DNA of 50,082 nucleotides from an uncultured Gammaproteobacteria bacterium (lineage in GTDB: Bacteria > Patescibacteriota > Microgenomatia > Curtissbacterales > GWA2-41-24): NCBI GenBank assembly GCA_964492425.1, contig CAZBKB010000007.1, positions 1 through 50,082 of the forward strand. The letters are read 5' to 3'. The notes under the pieces are model-generated. The model worked only from the letters and a program-made list of their open reading frames with translations, searched no databases and was not told the origin of the DNA. Within the stretch, counting starts at the first letter, position 1; every line of letters starts with the position of its first letter. Below are positions 13,688 through 19,743 of this stretch, in pieces. Made by a program: the position numbers and the translations under genes.

Positions 13688-13960
13688 TTAATAATCCACA
13701 AACACCTTCAAAATATTCTCCGAAACTTCCACTACTGCTCGTCCAAGGTTAAAATCAAATCTTTTTCCGCTCTCATCAAAAATTACCGCATTACCAAGGG
13801 CAGTAGTCACCAGATTCTCGTGCCCGGGCAAAATATCGTAGGGACCTACGTCATTTGTTGACGAAAAGCTACGCACATAGCCTTCAAAACTCAAACCCTT
13901 TTTATAAGTCGGCGATAAAATCACCGTATAAATCACATTGTTTTTCGCAGTAACTTGCAT
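13688..13960 (-). CDS. atpC: F1 ATPase epsilon-like subunit, beta-sandwich only
   Basis: ILSP...FEG...GPYDILPGH motif; follows atpD; 90 aa with no C-terminal helical hairpin. Confidence 0.8.
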   Translation of the reverse strand: MQVTAKNNVIYTVILSPTYKKGLSFEGYVRSFSSTNDVGPYDILPGHENLVTTALGNAVIFDESGKRFDFNLGRAVVEVSENILKVFVDY

Positions 13961-15333
13961 TATCCATTAACCTCCGCAAGTGATGCCGTATATAAAAGCT
14001 TTGCCGGATCCCATTCGTCAAGCTTTCCGGATAAAATATTCGAAACATCTCTTACCGTGTGTTCACGCTTAACATAAGTCCCTGCTCTTCCAGTCTGGTT
14101 ACTGGCCATAAAAGAACTTTGCGTCATGTAGTTATTAAGTAATTTCGCACGCCTGTAAACAATCCTGTCCTCAGGCGCAAGTTCTGCCTCACCGGCAATA
14201 GCAACAATCTTGTCCAAAAAGCCAAATTTAGAAAGGATCTTAACAGCTTCCAGGTAAGCATTATAGTGCTCTTTGCCAATAATCCCGGGGTTCATAAGTC
14301 CACTGCTGGATGCCAATATATCAACAGCCGGCCTCCTCCCTTCCTCGGCAACTGCTCTCGATAAAATAACCTGTGAATCAAAATAAGATGTTAAAGACTG
14401 TACCCCGCTATCTGTAAAGTCATCCGCGGGTACGAATATAGCCTCAACAGCGGTAATCGTTCCTTTGGCAGCAGAAACCAGCCTCTCCTGGAAAGTACCT
14501 ATATCACTCGTCAAAGTCGGTTGGTAACCGTCCTCCGAAGGTATGGAGTTGAGAAGCATCGAAAGCTCGTTGCCAGCCTGAATAAACCTGTACGCATTGT
14601 CTACAAAAAAAAGCACATCACGGTCTTCCTCGTCCCGAAAATACTCTGCAACAGCTGCCGCTGCATAACCAGTCCTAAATCTTCTGGCGGGTCTCTCATT
14701 CATCTGTCCAAATATCATTGCGACTTTAGAAAGTACATTATTCTCTTCCAGGTTCTCTATCATCTCCTGGGCTTCCCTAATCCGCTCTCCAATCCCGGCA
14801 AAAATATTAACGCCCTTATGGAAAATAGAAATATTGTGCATAAGCTCAGTCAAAATAATAGTCTTGCCAACCCCGGCCCCTCCAAAAATTCCAATTTTGC
14901 CTCCTTTCAAAAATGGCGTAAAAAAATCTATAACTTTAATTCCTGTCTCCAAAATCTCCCGGCTCACCGCAATGGACTGCAAGTTCGGCCCGCTCCCATA
15001 TATGGATTTCGTTTTCTTAATTTTTAGCTCACCTTTGCCGTCTCGCGTTTGTCCAAAAACATCAATCACCCTACCCAACAGTTCCACTCCCACAGGTATT
15101 TGTATCGTCTCAAAAAGTCTCACCACACGAGCACCACGATAAAGTTTGGTCGGATCACTGTAAGAGAGACAATAGACGGTATCGCTGGCACTTGATCCAT
15201 AAACTTCTAACCTCACAGTATTATCATCGGCAAGCGTCAAAAGCTCATGCCTAGATGGTTTAGCCGCCGTAAAAGAAACCTCGACTAAATCACCAAGAAT
15301 TCCGGTTACTGCTCCGGTGCCTTCATCAGCCAT
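13960..15333 (-). CDS. atpD: F1 ATPase beta subunit (divergent)
   Basis: [54 protein letters not shown] replaced by AELAPED. Confidence 0.96.
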
Positions 15334-15400
15334 ATATATTCATCAGTCTTTTAGTATAATTTTTCATGCACATAAACTAACGGGTTAATTCACCTCAAAC

Positions 15401-16282
15401 CTACCGGTTAACTGAAAATATACTCTTGCTCTCCCATGTGCTTCTCGCCCCATAAAGTTGTGTCTGTTTACGGTTGTTAACATCCTTATTAAAACGTATT
15501 TTAAACTTGGCAAGCTGGTTAAATGCTGCATTTATGCGCTCCGCAATCGCACCTATTTCCAAAATCTTTACCTGGACAGCGTTTTTGGTTAATCCCGCTT
15601 CAAACAACTTCTCCAAAAAAGCGCTGGCTATCATCTGCTTTTCCAAAAGCGCCAGAGGAACACCAGTTTTGGCTTCAAAATCGTATTTTTTACGTTTCGG
15701 CACATTTTCAACAATTACACTTTTAGAAATATCTTCCCGCTCAAGTTCCTGAGTCAAAATACTTTTATATTTACCCCAAAAAATCACAATCTCAAGATAA
15801 TTCCCCAATTGTTCGCTTACACGGCTAACTACATTCCAATCTGGCTTATCATCATCAAAATCAAAATAGAGCACATTGCCTGCCTTAAAACCAAATTTTT
15901 TAAGCAGGTTTTGCCCTGTCTGCCCAACCACAATCCCGTCCGCATCCCCTCTTCTAAACTCCAACATAAATTGGCGGACCATTGAATCAAGCAGCCTCCC
16001 AACATACCTGCTTTCAGACGAAACCAGAATCAAGACCTTTCGTCTCGAAGGAACCCTGTATGCGGTTCTCAAAATTACATCACTGTCTTTATGCTTTTCA
16101 GCAATCGCAATCTTGGCGTAAGAATAAGATTCTCGCGCCTCAGCTAAATGCCTGTTCAGCCTGTCGATTTCCTGCCTATTAATATCCATCTTACGAGCGG
16201 CAGCATGCTCAAAAACACGGGTAATCGAACGGATATCTTCAAGCGACTCCTCAAGCTTTTTTAAAGCATACTTACTGTTCAT
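15401..16282 (-). CDS. atpG: F1 ATPase gamma subunit (highly divergent)
   Basis: Located between alpha and beta; 293 aa; N-terminal IRSITRVFEHAAARKM helix, ILVSSESRYVG, terminal coiled coil. Confidence 0.85.
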   Translation of the reverse strand: MNSKYALKKLEESLEDIRSITRVFEHAAARKMDINRQEIDRLNRHLAEARESYSYAKIAIAEKHKDSDVILRTAYRVPSRRKVLILVSSESRYVGRLLDSMVRQFMLEFRRGDADGIVVGQTGQNLLKKFGFKAGNVLYFDFDDDKPDWNVVSRVSEQLGNYLEIVIFWGKYKSILTQELEREDISKSVIVENVPKRKKYDFEAKTGVPLALLEKQMIASAFLEKLFEAGLTKNAVQVKILEIGAIAERINAAFNQLAKFKIRFNKDVNNRKQTQLYGARSTWESKSIFSVNR

Positions 16283-16301
16283 AATTTATACCTCGAAATT
16301 T

Positions 16302-17846: not shown

Positions 17847-18376
17847 TTTGTCAACACTCCTACTTCCCTTCTCAACACTTCTTCAAGCGGAATATCTAAA
17901 GTCTGCCTGAAAACCTTTCCGCGGAACTCAATAACGGCACCGCCCACAATATATTCGTTGACAATCAGATCAATCAGGGTCTTTACACCAACAACAGTCG
18001 AGATCTGGTTTGAAAGGTTTTCCACAAAAGTATTAGTTGGCGCAAAAGCAAGAGTAATATTTGCAACCGGCAACCCCTTCAGGTAACCTACCAGTTCTTT
18101 TATAAAAGATAGTTGCTTGGCATCACCAACTGGTTCAAGACCTGCTGTCTCAATTTTCTCAAAAAGCGCAGGGGCAACGTCATTCGTAAAATCCCTTGCC
18201 TTTTCAGAAATTGTACCTTCTTTACCCCTAAAAAGTGCCCTCTCAATTAAAGTCAACTCATCAAGAAGCCGCAGTCGCCCGCGAATGTCATAAATAGAAT
18301 TCTCAAATGGCTTGAAAGCAACATTTAAAGCTGGTGCTTTTGTTATTTTTGTTGCTTTTAATACTGCTTGGCTCAC
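17843..18376 (-). CDS. atpH: F1 ATPase delta/OSCP-like subunit
   Basis: Position before atpA; C-terminal VNEYIVGGAVIEFRGKVF matches the delta C-domain. Confidence 0.78.
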   Translation of the reverse strand: MSQAVLKATKITKAPALNVAFKPFENSIYDIRGRLRLLDELTLIERALFRGKEGTISEKARDFTNDVAPALFEKIETAGLEPVGDAKQLSFIKELVGYLKGLPVANITLAFAPTNTFVENLSNQISTVVGVKTLIDLIVNEYIVGGAVIEFRGKVFRQTLDIPLEEVLRREVGVLTK

Positions 18377-18927
18377 CCAAACACCTTATCTTTCTTGGCC
18401 CGCTCAAGTGCCTTAGTGACCAAATCTTCATGCTCAGTCAAACTAATCGACCTGCCGATGACCTCTCGGGCTGCAGAGAGCACAATTTGCCTGATCTGCT
18501 CATCAACTGCTAAAAGCTTGTTTTTCCTGTACTCTTCTGCATCTTTTTCGATTTTCGAAAGCATATTGGCAACAAAAAACTGGCTTTCTTTTATTTGCTC
18601 CCGTTGTGCCTTTTCAATATAGGCGGCGACCTCAGCCGACTTCGCATGCATCAAGCGACCCAGCTCTTCGGAAAACTTATTAACTTCATTCTCAAGCTTA
18701 GCTGTCGAATCACTCGTTAAAGATTTAATATAGGCTGTGACAACCTGCTCGACATCACCTTTTATTTCTTGCCTTAACTTTCTTTCTTCGGAAGCTAATT
18801 TTTGCTCAACTGTAAGTACTTTCCAAATCCTTATAAATACAAAAAACACCAAAATCAGTGTGAAGAGAGTCAACAATATCGACACCGTTATAAGTGTATC
18901 CGTGTCTGTGTATAAAGGCAGATTCAT
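18373..18927 (-). CDS. atpF: Fo subunit b-like peripheral stalk
   Basis: N-terminal TM, long charged coiled coil, C-terminal AAREVIGRSISLTEHEDLVTKAL; position before delta. Confidence 0.75.
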   Translation of the reverse strand: MNLPLYTDTDTLITVSILLTLFTLILVFFVFIRIWKVLTVEQKLASEERKLRQEIKGDVEQVVTAYIKSLTSDSTAKLENEVNKFSEELGRLMHAKSAEVAAYIEKAQREQIKESQFFVANMLSKIEKDAEEYRKNKLLAVDEQIRQIVLSAAREVIGRSISLTEHEDLVTKALERAKKDKVFG

Positions 18928-18990
18928 ATCGTTATTGGTTCATAGTTATTAGTTCATAGTTCATAGCCAAGAGTCGCTAGTTTCCAGTCG

Positions 18991-19743
18991 CTAATTTGTG
19001 CCTCCAAGCATAATTATCACTACAGATGCCGCCAGCCCCACCCCAACAAACACAACAACTACAGAACCGGATATAACCATACCGCGGATTATTGTGCTGC
19101 GTGCCAGGGGGTTCCTTCCAATTGCAGTCACACCAGTATTCACAACCCGCAAAAAAGAAATTGTACCGATAACAAGGACAACCATTCCCAAAAGTGTGGA
19201 GAGGACAAGCCGCAGTCGTTCGCTGTTAGAAATCAAGGATCCTAAAAACCCGCTCCCGCCAATATTGTCTCCGATTTGCCTATAACCTATCTCCAAAGAA
19301 ACAGACACAAGGCCCTCGTTACCTTCAAGTCCCCCCAGGGCCTTACCTAAAACGTAGCCGGATTCGGTCGCTTTCTTCCCAACTCCAGCCTCCTCACTGC
19401 TTGTTATAAAATCCCCAATTGCGATATTTCCGCCAGAACTGCTAACCTTAACCTGTGCAGTTCCCGAAGAAGCTACAGCCCGCGTCTTATCGCTTCTGGG
19501 TTCAACCGATATGATTGGATTCTCAACAATCACTCCAATCATTTGTGAATCATAACTGGAGGCAGATCTGGCTAAACCACCTTCAGAAATCGACAAAATA
19601 TGCCCGACTTGCGCATCACCATCAGCTATCTCGGCATTAACCGCAACATGGGCTGGAGCTTGAGATAATACAGGCCGTGCAAATAGAGCAGCTGCGCAAA
19701 CCAAAAGTAGGCAAAATACTAAATATTTCACGCCTAATCCCAT
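18991..19743 (-). CDS. Fusion protein: signal peptide, exported beta-rich domain, and a subunit-c-like helical hairpin lacking the acidic residue
   Basis: Occupies the atpE position; C-terminal TM-GVTAIGRNPLA-TM resembles the c-subunit R(Q/N)P loop; N-domain YDSQMIGVI...GTAQVKV...GNIAIGDFITSS...GVGKKA...GYVLGKAL. Confidence 0.75.
   Translation of the reverse strand: MGLGVKYLVFCLLLVCAAALFARPVLSQAPAHVAVNAEIADGDAQVGHILSISEGGLARSASSYDSQMIGVIVENPIISVEPRSDKTRAVASSGTAQVKVSSSGGNIAIGDFITSSEEAGVGKKATESGYVLGKALGGLEGNEGLVSVSLEIGYRQIGDNIGGSGFLGSLISNSERLRLVLSTLLGMVVLVIGTISFLRVVNTGVTAIGRNPLARSTIIRGMVISGSVVVVFVGVGLAASVVIIMLGGTN

What the first reader, a model, noticed from the sequence alone, without database searches (positions are those of the whole stretch)
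13688..19743. F1-type ATPase operon with no subunit a and a c-like rotor protein lacking the ion-binding carboxylate, fused to an exported domain
Seen: the gene order is c-like, b, delta, alpha, gamma, beta, epsilon. This is the canonical atpEFHAGDC order, but leuS sits directly upstream where atpB (subunit a) should be. The c-position gene is 250 aa rather than about 75. Its last ~70 aa form TM-GVTAIGRNPLA-TM, keeping the polar loop that contacts gamma/epsilon, but helix 2 (RGMVISGSVVVVFVGVGLAASVVIIML) has no Asp/Glu. Its N-terminus is a signal peptide plus a ~130-aa soluble domain. Established: ion translocation by Fo needs subunit a and the c-ring carboxylate (E. coli cAsp61); Mycoplasma F1-like ATPase clusters are precedents for repurposed F1 motors. 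Inference: this is not an ATP synthase but an ATP-driven rotary or mechanical device whose ring displays a domain outside the cell, possibly for fibre assembly, export, host attachment or motility.
Basis: partly seen in the sequence, partly recalled or inferred. Interest (0 to 1): 0.92.

Follow-up and report, generated by a model that had tools for sequence, protein, structure and literature searches.

The report
Second F-type ATPase with exported rotor subunit
A small groundwater bacterium carries, beside its normal ATP synthase, a second complete F-type ATPase whose rotor protein has lost its ion-binding residue and gained a surface-exposed domain, so it probably burns ATP to do mechanical work at the cell surface.

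Summary
Window 13688-19743 (minus strand) encodes seven tightly packed genes: cX (250 aa), b, delta, alpha, gamma, beta and a short epsilon. There is no subunit a in the operon.

- **cX is a subunit c derivative.** It has a signal-peptide-like N-terminus, a ~130-aa exported domain and a C-terminal hairpin homologous to F-type subunit c (hhalign 95.5%, E 1.3e-8). All 11 PDB profile hits are c subunits.
- **The loop is kept, the carboxylate is lost.** The RNP loop is present in 68 of 68 cX sequences. The acidic residue, present in 17 of 17 canonical c, is absent from that position in 68 of 68 cX.
This genome also has a complete canonical atpBEFHAGDC operon on another contig, so the window operon is a paralogous second machine.
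- **It is widespread.** Full-length cX occurs in at least 54 of 401 sampled genomes of the phylum, almost always with the same gene order. No atpB was found in 21 of those 54. Three closed genomes have neither atpB nor a canonical atpE.
- **The F1 part looks active.** Catalytic residues are intact in 34 of 34, and epsilon lacks its C-terminal helices in 32 of 32.
- **The exported domain recurs in giant surface proteins**, often encoded nearby.

Best reading: an ATP-driven device that does not move ions, analogous to Mycoplasma F1-like X0. I found no description of it in the papers searched.

The parts
18991..19743 (-). cX: 250-aa protein made of a signal-peptide-like N-terminus, an exported domain and a C-terminal subunit-c-like hairpin. 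An alternative GTG start lies 4 codons in, as in homologue P0001.
19249..19662 (-). Exported N-domain of cX (about aa 28-165). Invariant motif GDFITSS..AGVG.KAT. The same domain occurs in giant surface proteins and resembles phage tail-fibre / cement-type domains.
18994..19230 (-). c-like hairpin of cX (aa 172-250): TM1, loop AIGRNPLA, TM2. No acidic residue at the carboxylate position.
18373..18927 (-). b-like peripheral-stalk subunit, 184 aa, with one N-terminal membrane helix and a coiled coil.
   Evidence: hhalign vs canonical b 96.4%, E 1.3e-9; one TM-like segment in 26 of 29 orthologues
17843..18376 (-). delta (OSCP)-like subunit, 177 aa.
   Evidence: below cut-offs; hhalign 97.3%, E 1.9e-11, C-terminal part only
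16302..17846 (-). alpha-like subunit, 514 aa. Walker A Lys and Arg finger kept; N-terminal extension shortened.
15401..16282 (-). gamma-like subunit, 293 aa.
   Evidence: PF00231, E 4.9e-11; 99.9%
13960..15333 (-). beta-like catalytic subunit, 457 aa. Walker A GGAGVGKT and GER.RE intact; DELSEED degenerate (AELAPED).
13688..13960 (-). Short epsilon, 90 aa: beta-sandwich only, no C-terminal helical domain.
24013..30792 (+). Giant 2259-aa predicted surface protein carrying two copies of the cX N-domain (nt about 28486-28818 and 29323-29655). It is the only other protein in this genome with that domain. Possible partner; not shown.
13601..13629 (-). Perfect sigma-70-like promoter (TTGACA-17-TATAAT) just after epsilon. 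It marks the start of the next transcription unit and so the end of the operon. This is a consensus match only.

Best explanation
This is a second, paralogous F-type ATPase, called cX-type here. It is conserved across the phylum of small-genome bacteria that the window belongs to (Patescibacteria/CPR, judged from names on homologues).

It keeps a catalytically competent alpha3beta3 head, the gamma/epsilon central stalk and a b/delta peripheral stalk. The ion-translocating Fo is gone. There is no subunit a. The c subunit has become cX: a hairpin that keeps the cytoplasmic RNP loop, which docks gamma/epsilon in F-ATPases, but lacks the membrane carboxylate. An exported domain of about 130 aa is fused to its outward-facing N-terminus.

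Most likely mechanism (inferred): the enzyme runs only as an ATPase. Hydrolysis turns gamma/epsilon and an oligomer of cX. That oligomer moves no ions and instead carries a crown of surface domains, so cytoplasmic ATP energy reaches the outside of the cell. One candidate target is the giant surface proteins that carry the same domain and are often encoded nearby.

Shown: gene content, homology of all seven subunits, loss of the carboxylate, absence of subunit a, conservation and distribution.
Inferred: ring formation, rotation, outward topology and the target.
For: 1. All seven subunits are homologues of F-type subunits.
2. The RNP loop is present in 68 of 68 cX, and an acidic residue at +17/+18 in 0 of 68, against 17 of 17 canonical c. 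It is also absent in 0 of 149 top library representatives.
3. No subunit a in the operon. No atpB was found in 21 of 54 cX genomes. The closed genomes G245, G352 and G198 have one alpha/beta pair, next to cX, and neither atpB nor a canonical atpE.
4. Where atpB and atpE exist, they lie in a separate complete operon with their own F1 genes.
5. Catalytic residues are kept in 34 of 34: beta Walker A K/T, GER.RE, alpha Arg finger.
6. Epsilon is truncated to the sandwich in 32 of 32. By recalled knowledge, the missing helices are the part that inhibits hydrolysis.
7. The order cX-b-delta-alpha-gamma-beta-epsilon, or a close variant, appears in about 32 of 40 fetched loci from many families; alpha and beta lie beside cX in 33 of the 40. 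No eighth conserved gene was found; the next family occurs in only 9 of 41 loci.
8. cX-type beta forms one clade (34 rows, SH-aLRT 92) outside canonical phylum beta plus E. coli beta.
9. The cX N-terminus looks like a signal peptide in 32 of 34. Positive charges flank the loop, which fits subunit c topology with the domain outside.
10. The N-domain plus hairpin fusion is fixed in 143 of 149 top representatives. The family has 967 clusters at E<=1e-10.
11. N-domain-bearing giant ORFs lie within 20 kb of cX in 10 of 25 genomes, against 1.46 expected.
Against: - No structure or complex model could be made, so ring formation and gamma/epsilon docking are untested.
- The GxGxGxG packing motif of canonical c helix 1 is not conserved in cX. 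Only spaced small residues remain (my reading of the column counts).
- With no subunit a there is no known membrane partner for the b stalk, so it is unclear what the rotor works against.
- The alpha N-terminal extension is shorter in cX-type operons (median 16 vs 29 residues). By recalled knowledge this is the part that binds delta.
- The delta match covers only its C-terminal part.
- The link to giant proteins is not obligatory. 21 of 45 cX genomes have no N-domain-only ORF at E<=1e-6, and many genomes have such ORFs without cX.
- Related genomes are not independent, so the proximity statistic overstates.
- No expression data: no RNA holder was listed.
- The alpha tree does not recover cX-type alpha as one clade.
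Confidence: 0.55

Rival explanations
1. A static, non-rotary platform. The F1-like head, b/delta and cX form a membrane-anchored ATPase that works like the FliI/FliH/FliJ export ATPase or a chaperone. cX acts as a membrane tether and outside receptor, not as a turning ring.
For: There is no subunit a to act as stator partner. The helix-1 glycine packing motif is not conserved. The N-domain resembles phage tail-fibre, cement and scaffold-type domains. Alpha and beta also score, more weakly, against FliI and T3SS ATPase models.
Against: A full peripheral stalk (b and delta) and gamma/epsilon are kept under selection, which makes most sense if torque must be resisted. The RNP loop is invariant (68 of 68). 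Alpha and beta are closest to atpA and atpD, not FliI.
Confidence: 0.2
2. A true ion-translocating ATPase or synthase with unorthodox chemistry. Another polar residue of cX (for example the conserved Asn/Ser at +13) and an unrecognised a-like protein encoded elsewhere would carry the ions.
For: Asn or Ser at +13 of helix 2 in 52 of 68 cX, and Glu at +12 in 2 of 68. Some genomes have this as their only rotary ATPase, and cells usually need a way to set membrane potential and pH.
Against: 0 of 68 and 0 of 149 have a carboxylate at the binding position. By established knowledge, every characterised F/V/A rotor needs one. No conserved extra membrane protein lies in the neighbourhood. PF00119 finds nothing in 21 of 54 cX genomes.
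Confidence: 0.1
3. A hybrid use. The window's F1/b/delta genes assemble with subunits a and c of the canonical operon, and cX is an accessory or assembly factor.
For: This genome does have atpB and atpE, as do 33 of 54 cX genomes.
Against: The canonical operon has its own complete F1 set. No atpB was found in 21 of 54 cX genomes. Three closed genomes lack both atpB and a canonical atpE yet keep the cX operon intact.
Confidence: 0.05
4. A decaying, functionless remnant of a duplicated atp operon.
For: Subunits are divergent and score below NCBIfam equivalog cut-offs. DELSEED is degenerate.
Against: All frames are open. The order is conserved across many families. Catalytic residues are kept in 34 of 34. 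The family has 967 or more clusters. It is the sole rotary ATPase in some closed genomes.
Confidence: 0.02

Closest known systems
Mycoplasma Type 3 'F1-like X0' ATPase (Beven et al. 2012, PMC3369863, abstract read; Berlureau et al. 2026, PMC12994834, abstract and section 2.1 read)
   Same: - A seven-gene cluster that is a second F-type-derived ATPase beside the genuine F1Fo.
- It has alpha-, beta-, gamma- and epsilon-like subunits and no recognisable a or c.
- It includes a membrane protein with an N-terminal signal peptide, extracellular globular domains and two C-terminal transmembrane helices (MMCAP2_0577). That is the same architecture as cX.
- Its ATPase activity is needed for a cell-surface function (MIB-MIP antibody cleavage) by an unknown mechanism.
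   Different: - The window's alpha and beta score higher against canonical atpA and atpD than against the MSC_0619/MSC_0618 models, and below those models' cut-offs.
- b and delta are retained here. The paper says the Mycoplasma alpha-like subunit lacks the N-terminal helix that binds them.
- The conserved set here has no 12-TM protein and no 19-kDa cytoplasmic protein.
- The hairpin here is demonstrably c-derived.
Canonical bacterial F1Fo ATP synthase (atpBEFHAGDC), including this genome's own copy on contig C16
   Same: - Gene order from c to epsilon.
- Homologous b, delta, alpha, gamma, beta and epsilon.
- Catalytic residues.
- The c-like hairpin with its RNP loop.
   Different: - No subunit a.
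- No rotor carboxylate.
- c is fused to an exported domain.
- Epsilon lacks its C-terminal helices (median 90 vs 141 aa).
- b and delta are longer (medians 213 vs 176 aa and 159 vs 131 aa).
- The alpha N-terminus is shorter.
- Beta forms a separate clade.
Mycoplasma mobile Type 2 gliding-motor F1-like ATPase (PMC8406192 and bioRxiv 10.1101/2024.06.11.597861, search listings and abstracts only)
   Same: An F1-derived ATPase repurposed to drive a surface mechanical function.
   Different: The window's alpha and beta score below the MMOB1660/MMOB1670 cut-offs and lower than against atpA/atpD. By those abstracts the Mycoplasma motor is a cytoplasmic dimeric chain; nothing like cX, b or delta is mentioned there.
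N-ATPase (alternate F1Fo)
   Same: A second F-type operon beside the main one.
   Different: The alt_F1F0 alpha and beta models score below their cut-offs and below atpA/atpD. By established knowledge, N-ATPases keep subunit a and a carboxylate-bearing c and lack a separate delta. Here it is the reverse.
'Non-catalytic' rotary ATPases flagged in the ProAD database (PMC11738941, passages read)
   Same: ProAD lists 20 candidate F/N-ATPases whose c subunit lacks the essential Glu/Asp.
   Different: ProAD required the alpha-beta-gamma-a-c core set, so operons without subunit a like this one would count as incomplete. The passages I saw mention no exported-domain fusion. Whether any of those 20 are related is unknown.

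Membership tests
Canonical ion-translocating F1Fo ATP synthase | alpha3beta3 catalytic head with Walker A, catalytic Glu and Arg finger | tested here: met
   PF00006 E 1e-62 to 1e-65; motifs kept in 34 of 34 cX-type alpha and beta
Canonical ion-translocating F1Fo ATP synthase | gamma, epsilon, delta and b homologues | tested here: met
   hhalign 99.9, 98.5, 97.3 and 96.4%. Epsilon matches over the N-terminal sandwich only, delta over its C-terminal part only
Canonical ion-translocating F1Fo ATP synthase | Subunit a (PF00119) belonging to the complex | tested here: not met
   None in the operon. The genome's only atpB sits in the separate canonical operon. No PF00119 hit in 21 of 54 cX genomes
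Canonical ion-translocating F1Fo ATP synthase | Rotor subunit c with a membrane-embedded Asp/Glu | tested here: not met
   0 of 68 cX against 17 of 17 canonical; 0 of 149
Pfam ATP-synt_C (PF00137) | Score over the gathering cut-off (24 bits) | tested here: not met
   The window's cX has no hit at E<=1. The family member P0160 scores 22.9 bits. G245's cX gives a weak hit, E 0.037. Homology shows only at profile level
Mycoplasma F1-like X0 (Type 3, MSC_0618/0619 families) | alpha and beta belong to NCBIfam MSC_0619_alpha / MSC_0618_beta | tested here: not met
   245.9 bits (cut-off 520) and 369.7 bits (cut-off 570), both lower than the atpA and atpD scores
Mycoplasma F1-like X0 (Type 3, MSC_0618/0619 families) | Membrane subunit with signal peptide, outside domains and two C-terminal TM helices | tested here: inconclusive
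   cX has this architecture. Sequence homology to MMCAP2_0577 could not be tested. NCBIfam gave no hit for cX
Mycoplasma F1-like X0 (Type 3, MSC_0618/0619 families) | 12-TM protein and small cytoplasmic protein in the cluster; no b or delta | tested here: not met
   b and delta are present, and no further conserved cluster gene was found
N-ATPase | alt_F1F0 alpha and beta equivalogs; operon with a, a carboxylate c and AtpR/AtpQ | tested here: not met
   342.7 bits (cut-off 750.5) and 412.7 bits (cut-off 752). Operon content
c-ring rotor (function, not sequence family) | Homo-oligomeric ring that docks gamma/epsilon through its loop | not testable with these tools
The only indirect support is the invariant RNP loop

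The most novel reading that the evidence does not exclude
The cX-type ATPase is a new class of ATP-driven rotary surface motor. 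A carboxylate-free, c-derived ring spins, or is clamped by, a crown of tail-fibre-like domains outside the cell. It couples by like-with-like domain contacts to giant surface fibres, in order to fold, deploy, wind or move them. That would be mechanical energy passed across the membrane with no ion gradient. It would also suggest that the two C-terminal helices of the Mycoplasma X0 subunit (MMCAP2_0577) are a cryptic c-like ring, uniting the two systems.
Probability: 0.25. Interest if true: 0.95.

Novelty: new variant of a known kind. Interest (0 to 1): 0.82.

Why it matters
Reviews of these ultrasmall, host-dependent bacteria note that they carry F-type ATPases despite having no respiratory chain, and that many have 'incomplete' or 'minimal' complexes (PMC11665869 and PMC10656485, passages read). 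This finding shows that one large class of such 'incomplete' operons is not decay. It is a conserved seven-gene machine with its own rotor-derived subunit.

In some closed genomes it is the only rotary ATPase. That changes how their energy budget should be read: they would have no ion-coupled ATP synthase at all.

Apart from the Mycoplasma F1-like ATPases, it is to my knowledge the only case of an F1 motor rewired to something other than ion transport. Unlike Mycoplasma, it still shows where the new membrane part came from, namely subunit c. That makes the question of how ATP hydrolysis inside the cell powers events at the surface testable.

The family (at least 967 clusters at 50% identity) is annotated only as 'hypothetical protein' where a name exists.

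Tried and rejected
- **Structure prediction.** The ESM Atlas's own model was used instead. It gives leads only.
- **Complex prediction.** I sent gamma plus epsilon plus four cX hairpins five times in the same form. The machine did not complete, so there is no result of any kind.
- **Expression.** No RNA holder was listed.
- **Related loci by profile.** The single-protein scan gave one locus, L079, in a MAG labelled Gammaproteobacteria, which I did not follow.
- **Conserved a-substitute next to the operon.** All-against-all clustering of neighbours found nothing beyond the seven genes.
- **Third PF00006 match in the window.** The match at 38352-39689 is Rho, not a third ATPase.
- **Pfam on the giant protein.** No family at E<=0.1, so I make no claim about its N-terminus.
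- **Membership in Mycoplasma or N-type families.** Rejected on NCBIfam scores.
- **Literature.** Seven searches found no description of an F-type operon with an exported c-fusion in these bacteria. [quoted passage not shown] The passages I saw do not say what these are.
- **Tree limits.** The only non-phylum outgroup is E. coli, so how deep the cX-type clade branches among bacteria is not settled.

**Rows left out**
- Alpha and beta sets: 33 of the 40 cX loci contributed (plus the window, making 34). Six loci had no alpha/beta beside cX, and one (L063) was lost to a parsing quirk in the positional b/delta script only.
- b and delta sets: 28 loci plus the window (29 rows).
- searched 45 of the 54 cX genomes. 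Left out: G088, G030, G291, G169, G277, G233, G186, G318 and G000 itself.

**Unpublished genome.** G154 is part of the 401-genome tallies (224/401 and 208/401). It has no full-length cX, and no specific claim rests on it.

Full report
**What is there.** On the minus strand of the window, seven ORFs run head to tail with gaps or overlaps of -4 to 67 nt:
- cX, 19743..18991, 250 aa
- b-like, 18927..18373, 184 aa
- delta-like, 18376..17843, 177 aa
- alpha, 17846..16302, 514 aa
- gamma, 16282..15401, 293 aa
- beta, 15333..13960, 457 aa
- epsilon, 13960..13688, 90 aa

leuS ends 77 nt upstream of cX. A perfect sigma-70-like promoter (a consensus match only) lies just after epsilon and faces the next gene, so epsilon closes the unit.

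Pfam and NCBIfam see alpha, beta and gamma clearly. Delta and epsilon score only below the cut-offs, and b and cX not at all. Alpha and beta score best against canonical atpA and atpD, but below the equivalog cut-offs. They score lower still against the alternate-F1Fo, Mycoplasma MSC_0618/0619 and gliding-motor models.

**The genome also has a normal ATP synthase.** Contig C16 of the same 1.09-Mb assembly (96% complete) carries atpB, atpE, atpF, atpH, atpA, atpG, atpD and atpC in canonical order. Its c subunit is 68 aa with a Glu in helix 2, and its epsilon is 136 aa. The window operon is therefore a second, paralogous set. The third PF00006 match in the window (38352-39689) is Rho.

**Identity of cX.** A search of 5.8 billion proteins found 91 relatives of 172-282 aa. 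Those that carry a name are called 'hypothetical protein', from Patescibacteria-group and Saccharimonadales MAGs.
- The alignment shows an N-terminal hydrophobic leader ending in A-Q, a domain with invariant G/D/T/S positions (GDFITSS..AGVG.KAT), a variable linker and a C-terminal hairpin with invariant R-N-P.
- A profile of the 35 aligned proteins hits 11 PDB sequences at E<=10. All 11 are F-type c subunits. The best is E 2.1e-4, and the alignments span the whole hairpin.
- hhalign of 68 cX hairpins against 17 canonical c subunits (16 from the phylum plus E. coli) gives 95.5% probability, E 1.3e-8, over 48 columns.
- The Atlas model of the hairpin superposes on a PF00137 cluster with TM 0.87 by query. 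This means little on its own for a helical hairpin.
- One family member reaches 22.9 bits on PF00137, where the cut-off is 24.
- Counting from the loop proline, canonical c has Asp/Glu at +17 or +18 in 17 of 17. cX has none there in 68 of 68 (Val, Thr or Leu instead). 2 of 68 have a Glu at +12.
- Asn/Ser at +13 (52 of 68) and Gly at +24 (65 of 68) are conserved. The glycine-rich packing motif of canonical helix 1 is not.

**The other subunits.** I took orthologues from fetched loci and compared profile with profile against canonical operons of the same phylum plus E. coli.
- b 96.4% (E 1.3e-9), delta 97.3% (E 1.9e-11, C-terminal part), gamma 99.9%, epsilon 98.5% (sandwich only). The crossed controls gave 0.1% and 0.5%.
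- b has one N-terminal membrane-helix-like segment in 26 of 29.
- Epsilon ends right after the beta-sandwich in 32 of 32. Its median length is 90 aa against 141 aa for canonical epsilon.
- Beta Walker A (K, T), the GER.RE catalytic motif, the alpha Walker A Lys and the alpha Arg finger are kept in 34 of 34. DELSEED is reduced to xELSxxD.
- The stretch of alpha before its barrel is shorter, median 16 against 29 residues.

**Distribution.** I searched 401 genomes drawn evenly from the phylum with the cX profile.
- At least 54 have a full-length match, counted from the 150 best matches listed; weaker full-length matches may be unlisted.
- PF00119 (subunit a) is found in 208 of the 401. Of the 54 cX genomes, 33 have it and 21 do not.
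- In G245, G352, G198 (single-contig genomes) and G128 (10 contigs), there is exactly one alpha/beta pair, next to cX, and no PF00137 match over the cut-off. G245's only weak match lies inside cX itself. G022 has a V/A-type enzyme plus the cX type.
- In G131, G218, G063, G344 and G109 there are two alpha/beta pairs. One sits in a canonical operon with atpB and atpE, and the other belongs to the cX type.
- In 40 fetched neighbourhoods, the order cX-b-delta-alpha-gamma-beta-epsilon, or a close variant, appears in about 32. In a few, epsilon is inverted or displaced. In 6, cX stands without an adjacent alpha/beta, and some of those are at contig ends. leuS is a frequent neighbour.
- No other gene family is shared by more than 9 of the 41 loci.
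- A hairpin-only profile finds 1444 clusters (50% identity) at E<=1e-3 and 967 at E<=1e-10 in a 1.84-billion-protein library. The hairpin is always at the C-terminus.
- Of the 149 best retrieved, 143 carry the N-domain directly before it. The other 6 are mostly fragments. 14 are long forms (396-539 aa) with an extra N-terminal part. That part matches HTH_17 over the cut-off in 1 of the 6 long forms scanned and weakly in 3 more.

**Phylogeny.** An alpha-plus-beta tree (108 rows, IQ-TREE quick search, LG+G4, each paralogue rooting the other) puts all 34 cX-type beta in one clade (SH-aLRT 92). It is sister to a clade (98) of 18 canonical phylum beta plus E. coli beta. cX-type alpha is not recovered as one clade, and the deep nodes there are weak (45, 88). 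With a single outside reference I claim only that the cX-type F1 is a distinct lineage. I do not claim how old it is.

**The exported domain.** Pfam gives weak hits to XM1_gp53_minor_capsid in 7 of 35 members and to Phage_cement_2 in 1. PHROGs gives a head-scaffolding family in 6 of 35 and a tail-fibre family in 2. The Atlas model of residues 26-160 superposes (TM about 0.8 by query) on parts of proteins from clusters that carry Peptidase_G2, collagen-like and PTL_trimer annotations. These are leads only.
- The same domain, without the hairpin, occurs in very long ORFs (about 700 to over 11,000 aa) in many genomes of the phylum.
- In this genome it occurs in exactly two proteins: cX and the 2259-aa ORF at 24013-30792. 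That ORF has two copies and is separated from the operon only by leuS.
- Among 25 genomes with both cX and such an ORF, the nearest domain match lies within 20 kb of cX in 10, from 9 taxonomic families. Random placement predicts 1.46 (numbers typed by hand).
- Relatives are not independent and contigs are short, so this is suggestive only.
- 21 of 45 cX genomes have no such ORF at E<=1e-6, so the link is not obligatory.

**Mechanism.**
- Shown: a complete F1 with stalks, no subunit a, and a c-derived subunit without the carboxylate but with the gamma/epsilon-facing loop intact.
- From established knowledge of F-ATPases: ion translocation needs subunit a and the rotor carboxylate. The RQP/RNP loop contacts gamma and epsilon. 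The C-terminal helices of epsilon inhibit hydrolysis. A peripheral stalk exists to resist torque.
- Inferred: the enzyme cannot couple to an ion gradient. It works as an ATPase that turns gamma/epsilon and a cX oligomer. Subunit c topology, the signal-peptide-like leader (32 of 34) and the positive charges around the loop put the N-domain outside the cell.
- What the rotor works against is unknown. The nearby giant proteins with the same domain are the best candidates.
- I put 0.55 on this reading as a whole. I put about 0.75 on the narrower claim that this is not an ion-coupled synthase.

**Comparison with what is known.** The nearest precedent is the Mycoplasma Type 3 'F1-like X0' ATPase. 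It is a seven-gene second cluster whose ATPase activity is required for the surface MIB-MIP system (PMC3369863, abstract; PMC12994834, abstract and section 2.1). One of its X0 proteins has a signal peptide, outside domains and two C-terminal membrane helices, which is the architecture of cX. The present system is not a member of that family. It fails the family models, keeps b and delta, and lacks the 12-TM subunit. It is also not an N-ATPase.

Published surveys treat such operons in these bacteria as incomplete, minimal or non-catalytic (PMC10656485, PMC11738941 and PMC11665869, passages read). Seven full-text searches found no description of the c-fusion.

**Verdict.** This is a widespread, conserved and apparently undescribed variant of the repurposed-F1 theme, with the origin of its membrane part still legible.

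Noticed in passing
window 20904-21064 and 21318-21478 (inside leuS, minus strand): A 161-nt direct repeat (2 copies, 99% identical, 414 nt apart) lies in frame inside leuS. It gives two copies of a ~54-aa Ser/Pro/Gly-rich insert in the 1023-aa LeuRS. GC content is locally raised (0.474 in 20001-22000). It could be an in-frame mobile insertion or a recent internal duplication.
   Followed up: partly
window 24013-30792 (+): A giant 2259-aa ORF with a membrane-helix-like stretch near residue 220, Thr/Ser/Gly/Asn-rich repeats, and two copies of the cX N-domain near its C-terminal third. Pfam finds no family at E<=0.1.
   Followed up: partly
library proteins P0143, P0148, P0160, P0175, P0194 and others (396-539 aa): Long cX variants carry an extra 190-330-aa N-terminal part. 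It begins with an HTH_17-like helix-turn-helix (P0175 30 bits, over the cut-off; three others weak). That implies a cytoplasmic DNA-binding-type domain, a membrane pass, then the outside domain and the hairpin.
   Followed up: partly
L052, L057, L060, L061, L062 (genomes G198, G022, G081, G286, G213): In these cX-type operons the short epsilon gene lies directly after beta but on the opposite strand. In L049 (G302) it is displaced by three genes.
   Followed up: no
L079 (CAYVAJ010000010.1, 2703-5359): A cX homologue (34% identity over residues 39-246) sits on a 37-kb contig of a MAG labelled 'uncultured Gammaproteobacteria bacterium'. Either the bin is mislabelled or the family reaches beyond the phylum.
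   Followed up: no
L008 9542-9829 (genome contig C16): In the canonical operon, a 95-aa hydrophobic ORF sits between atpD and atpC. Canonical delta in this phylum is short (about 130 aa), as the 2026 preprint also notes.
   Followed up: no
window 30882-31493 (+); 9703-12142 (-): An IS200-like (Y1_Tnp) transposase lies just after the giant ORF. comEA-like (HHH) and comEC (Competence plus a metallo-beta-lactamase-like ORF) genes lie downstream of the operon.
   Followed up: no
window 12971-13591 (-): A 206-aa ORF directly after the operon, with its own perfect promoter-like site. It has an RR-containing N-terminal region followed by a hydrophobic stretch (Tat-signal-like by eye). No Pfam family, and it is not conserved next to cX in other genomes.
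   Followed up: partly
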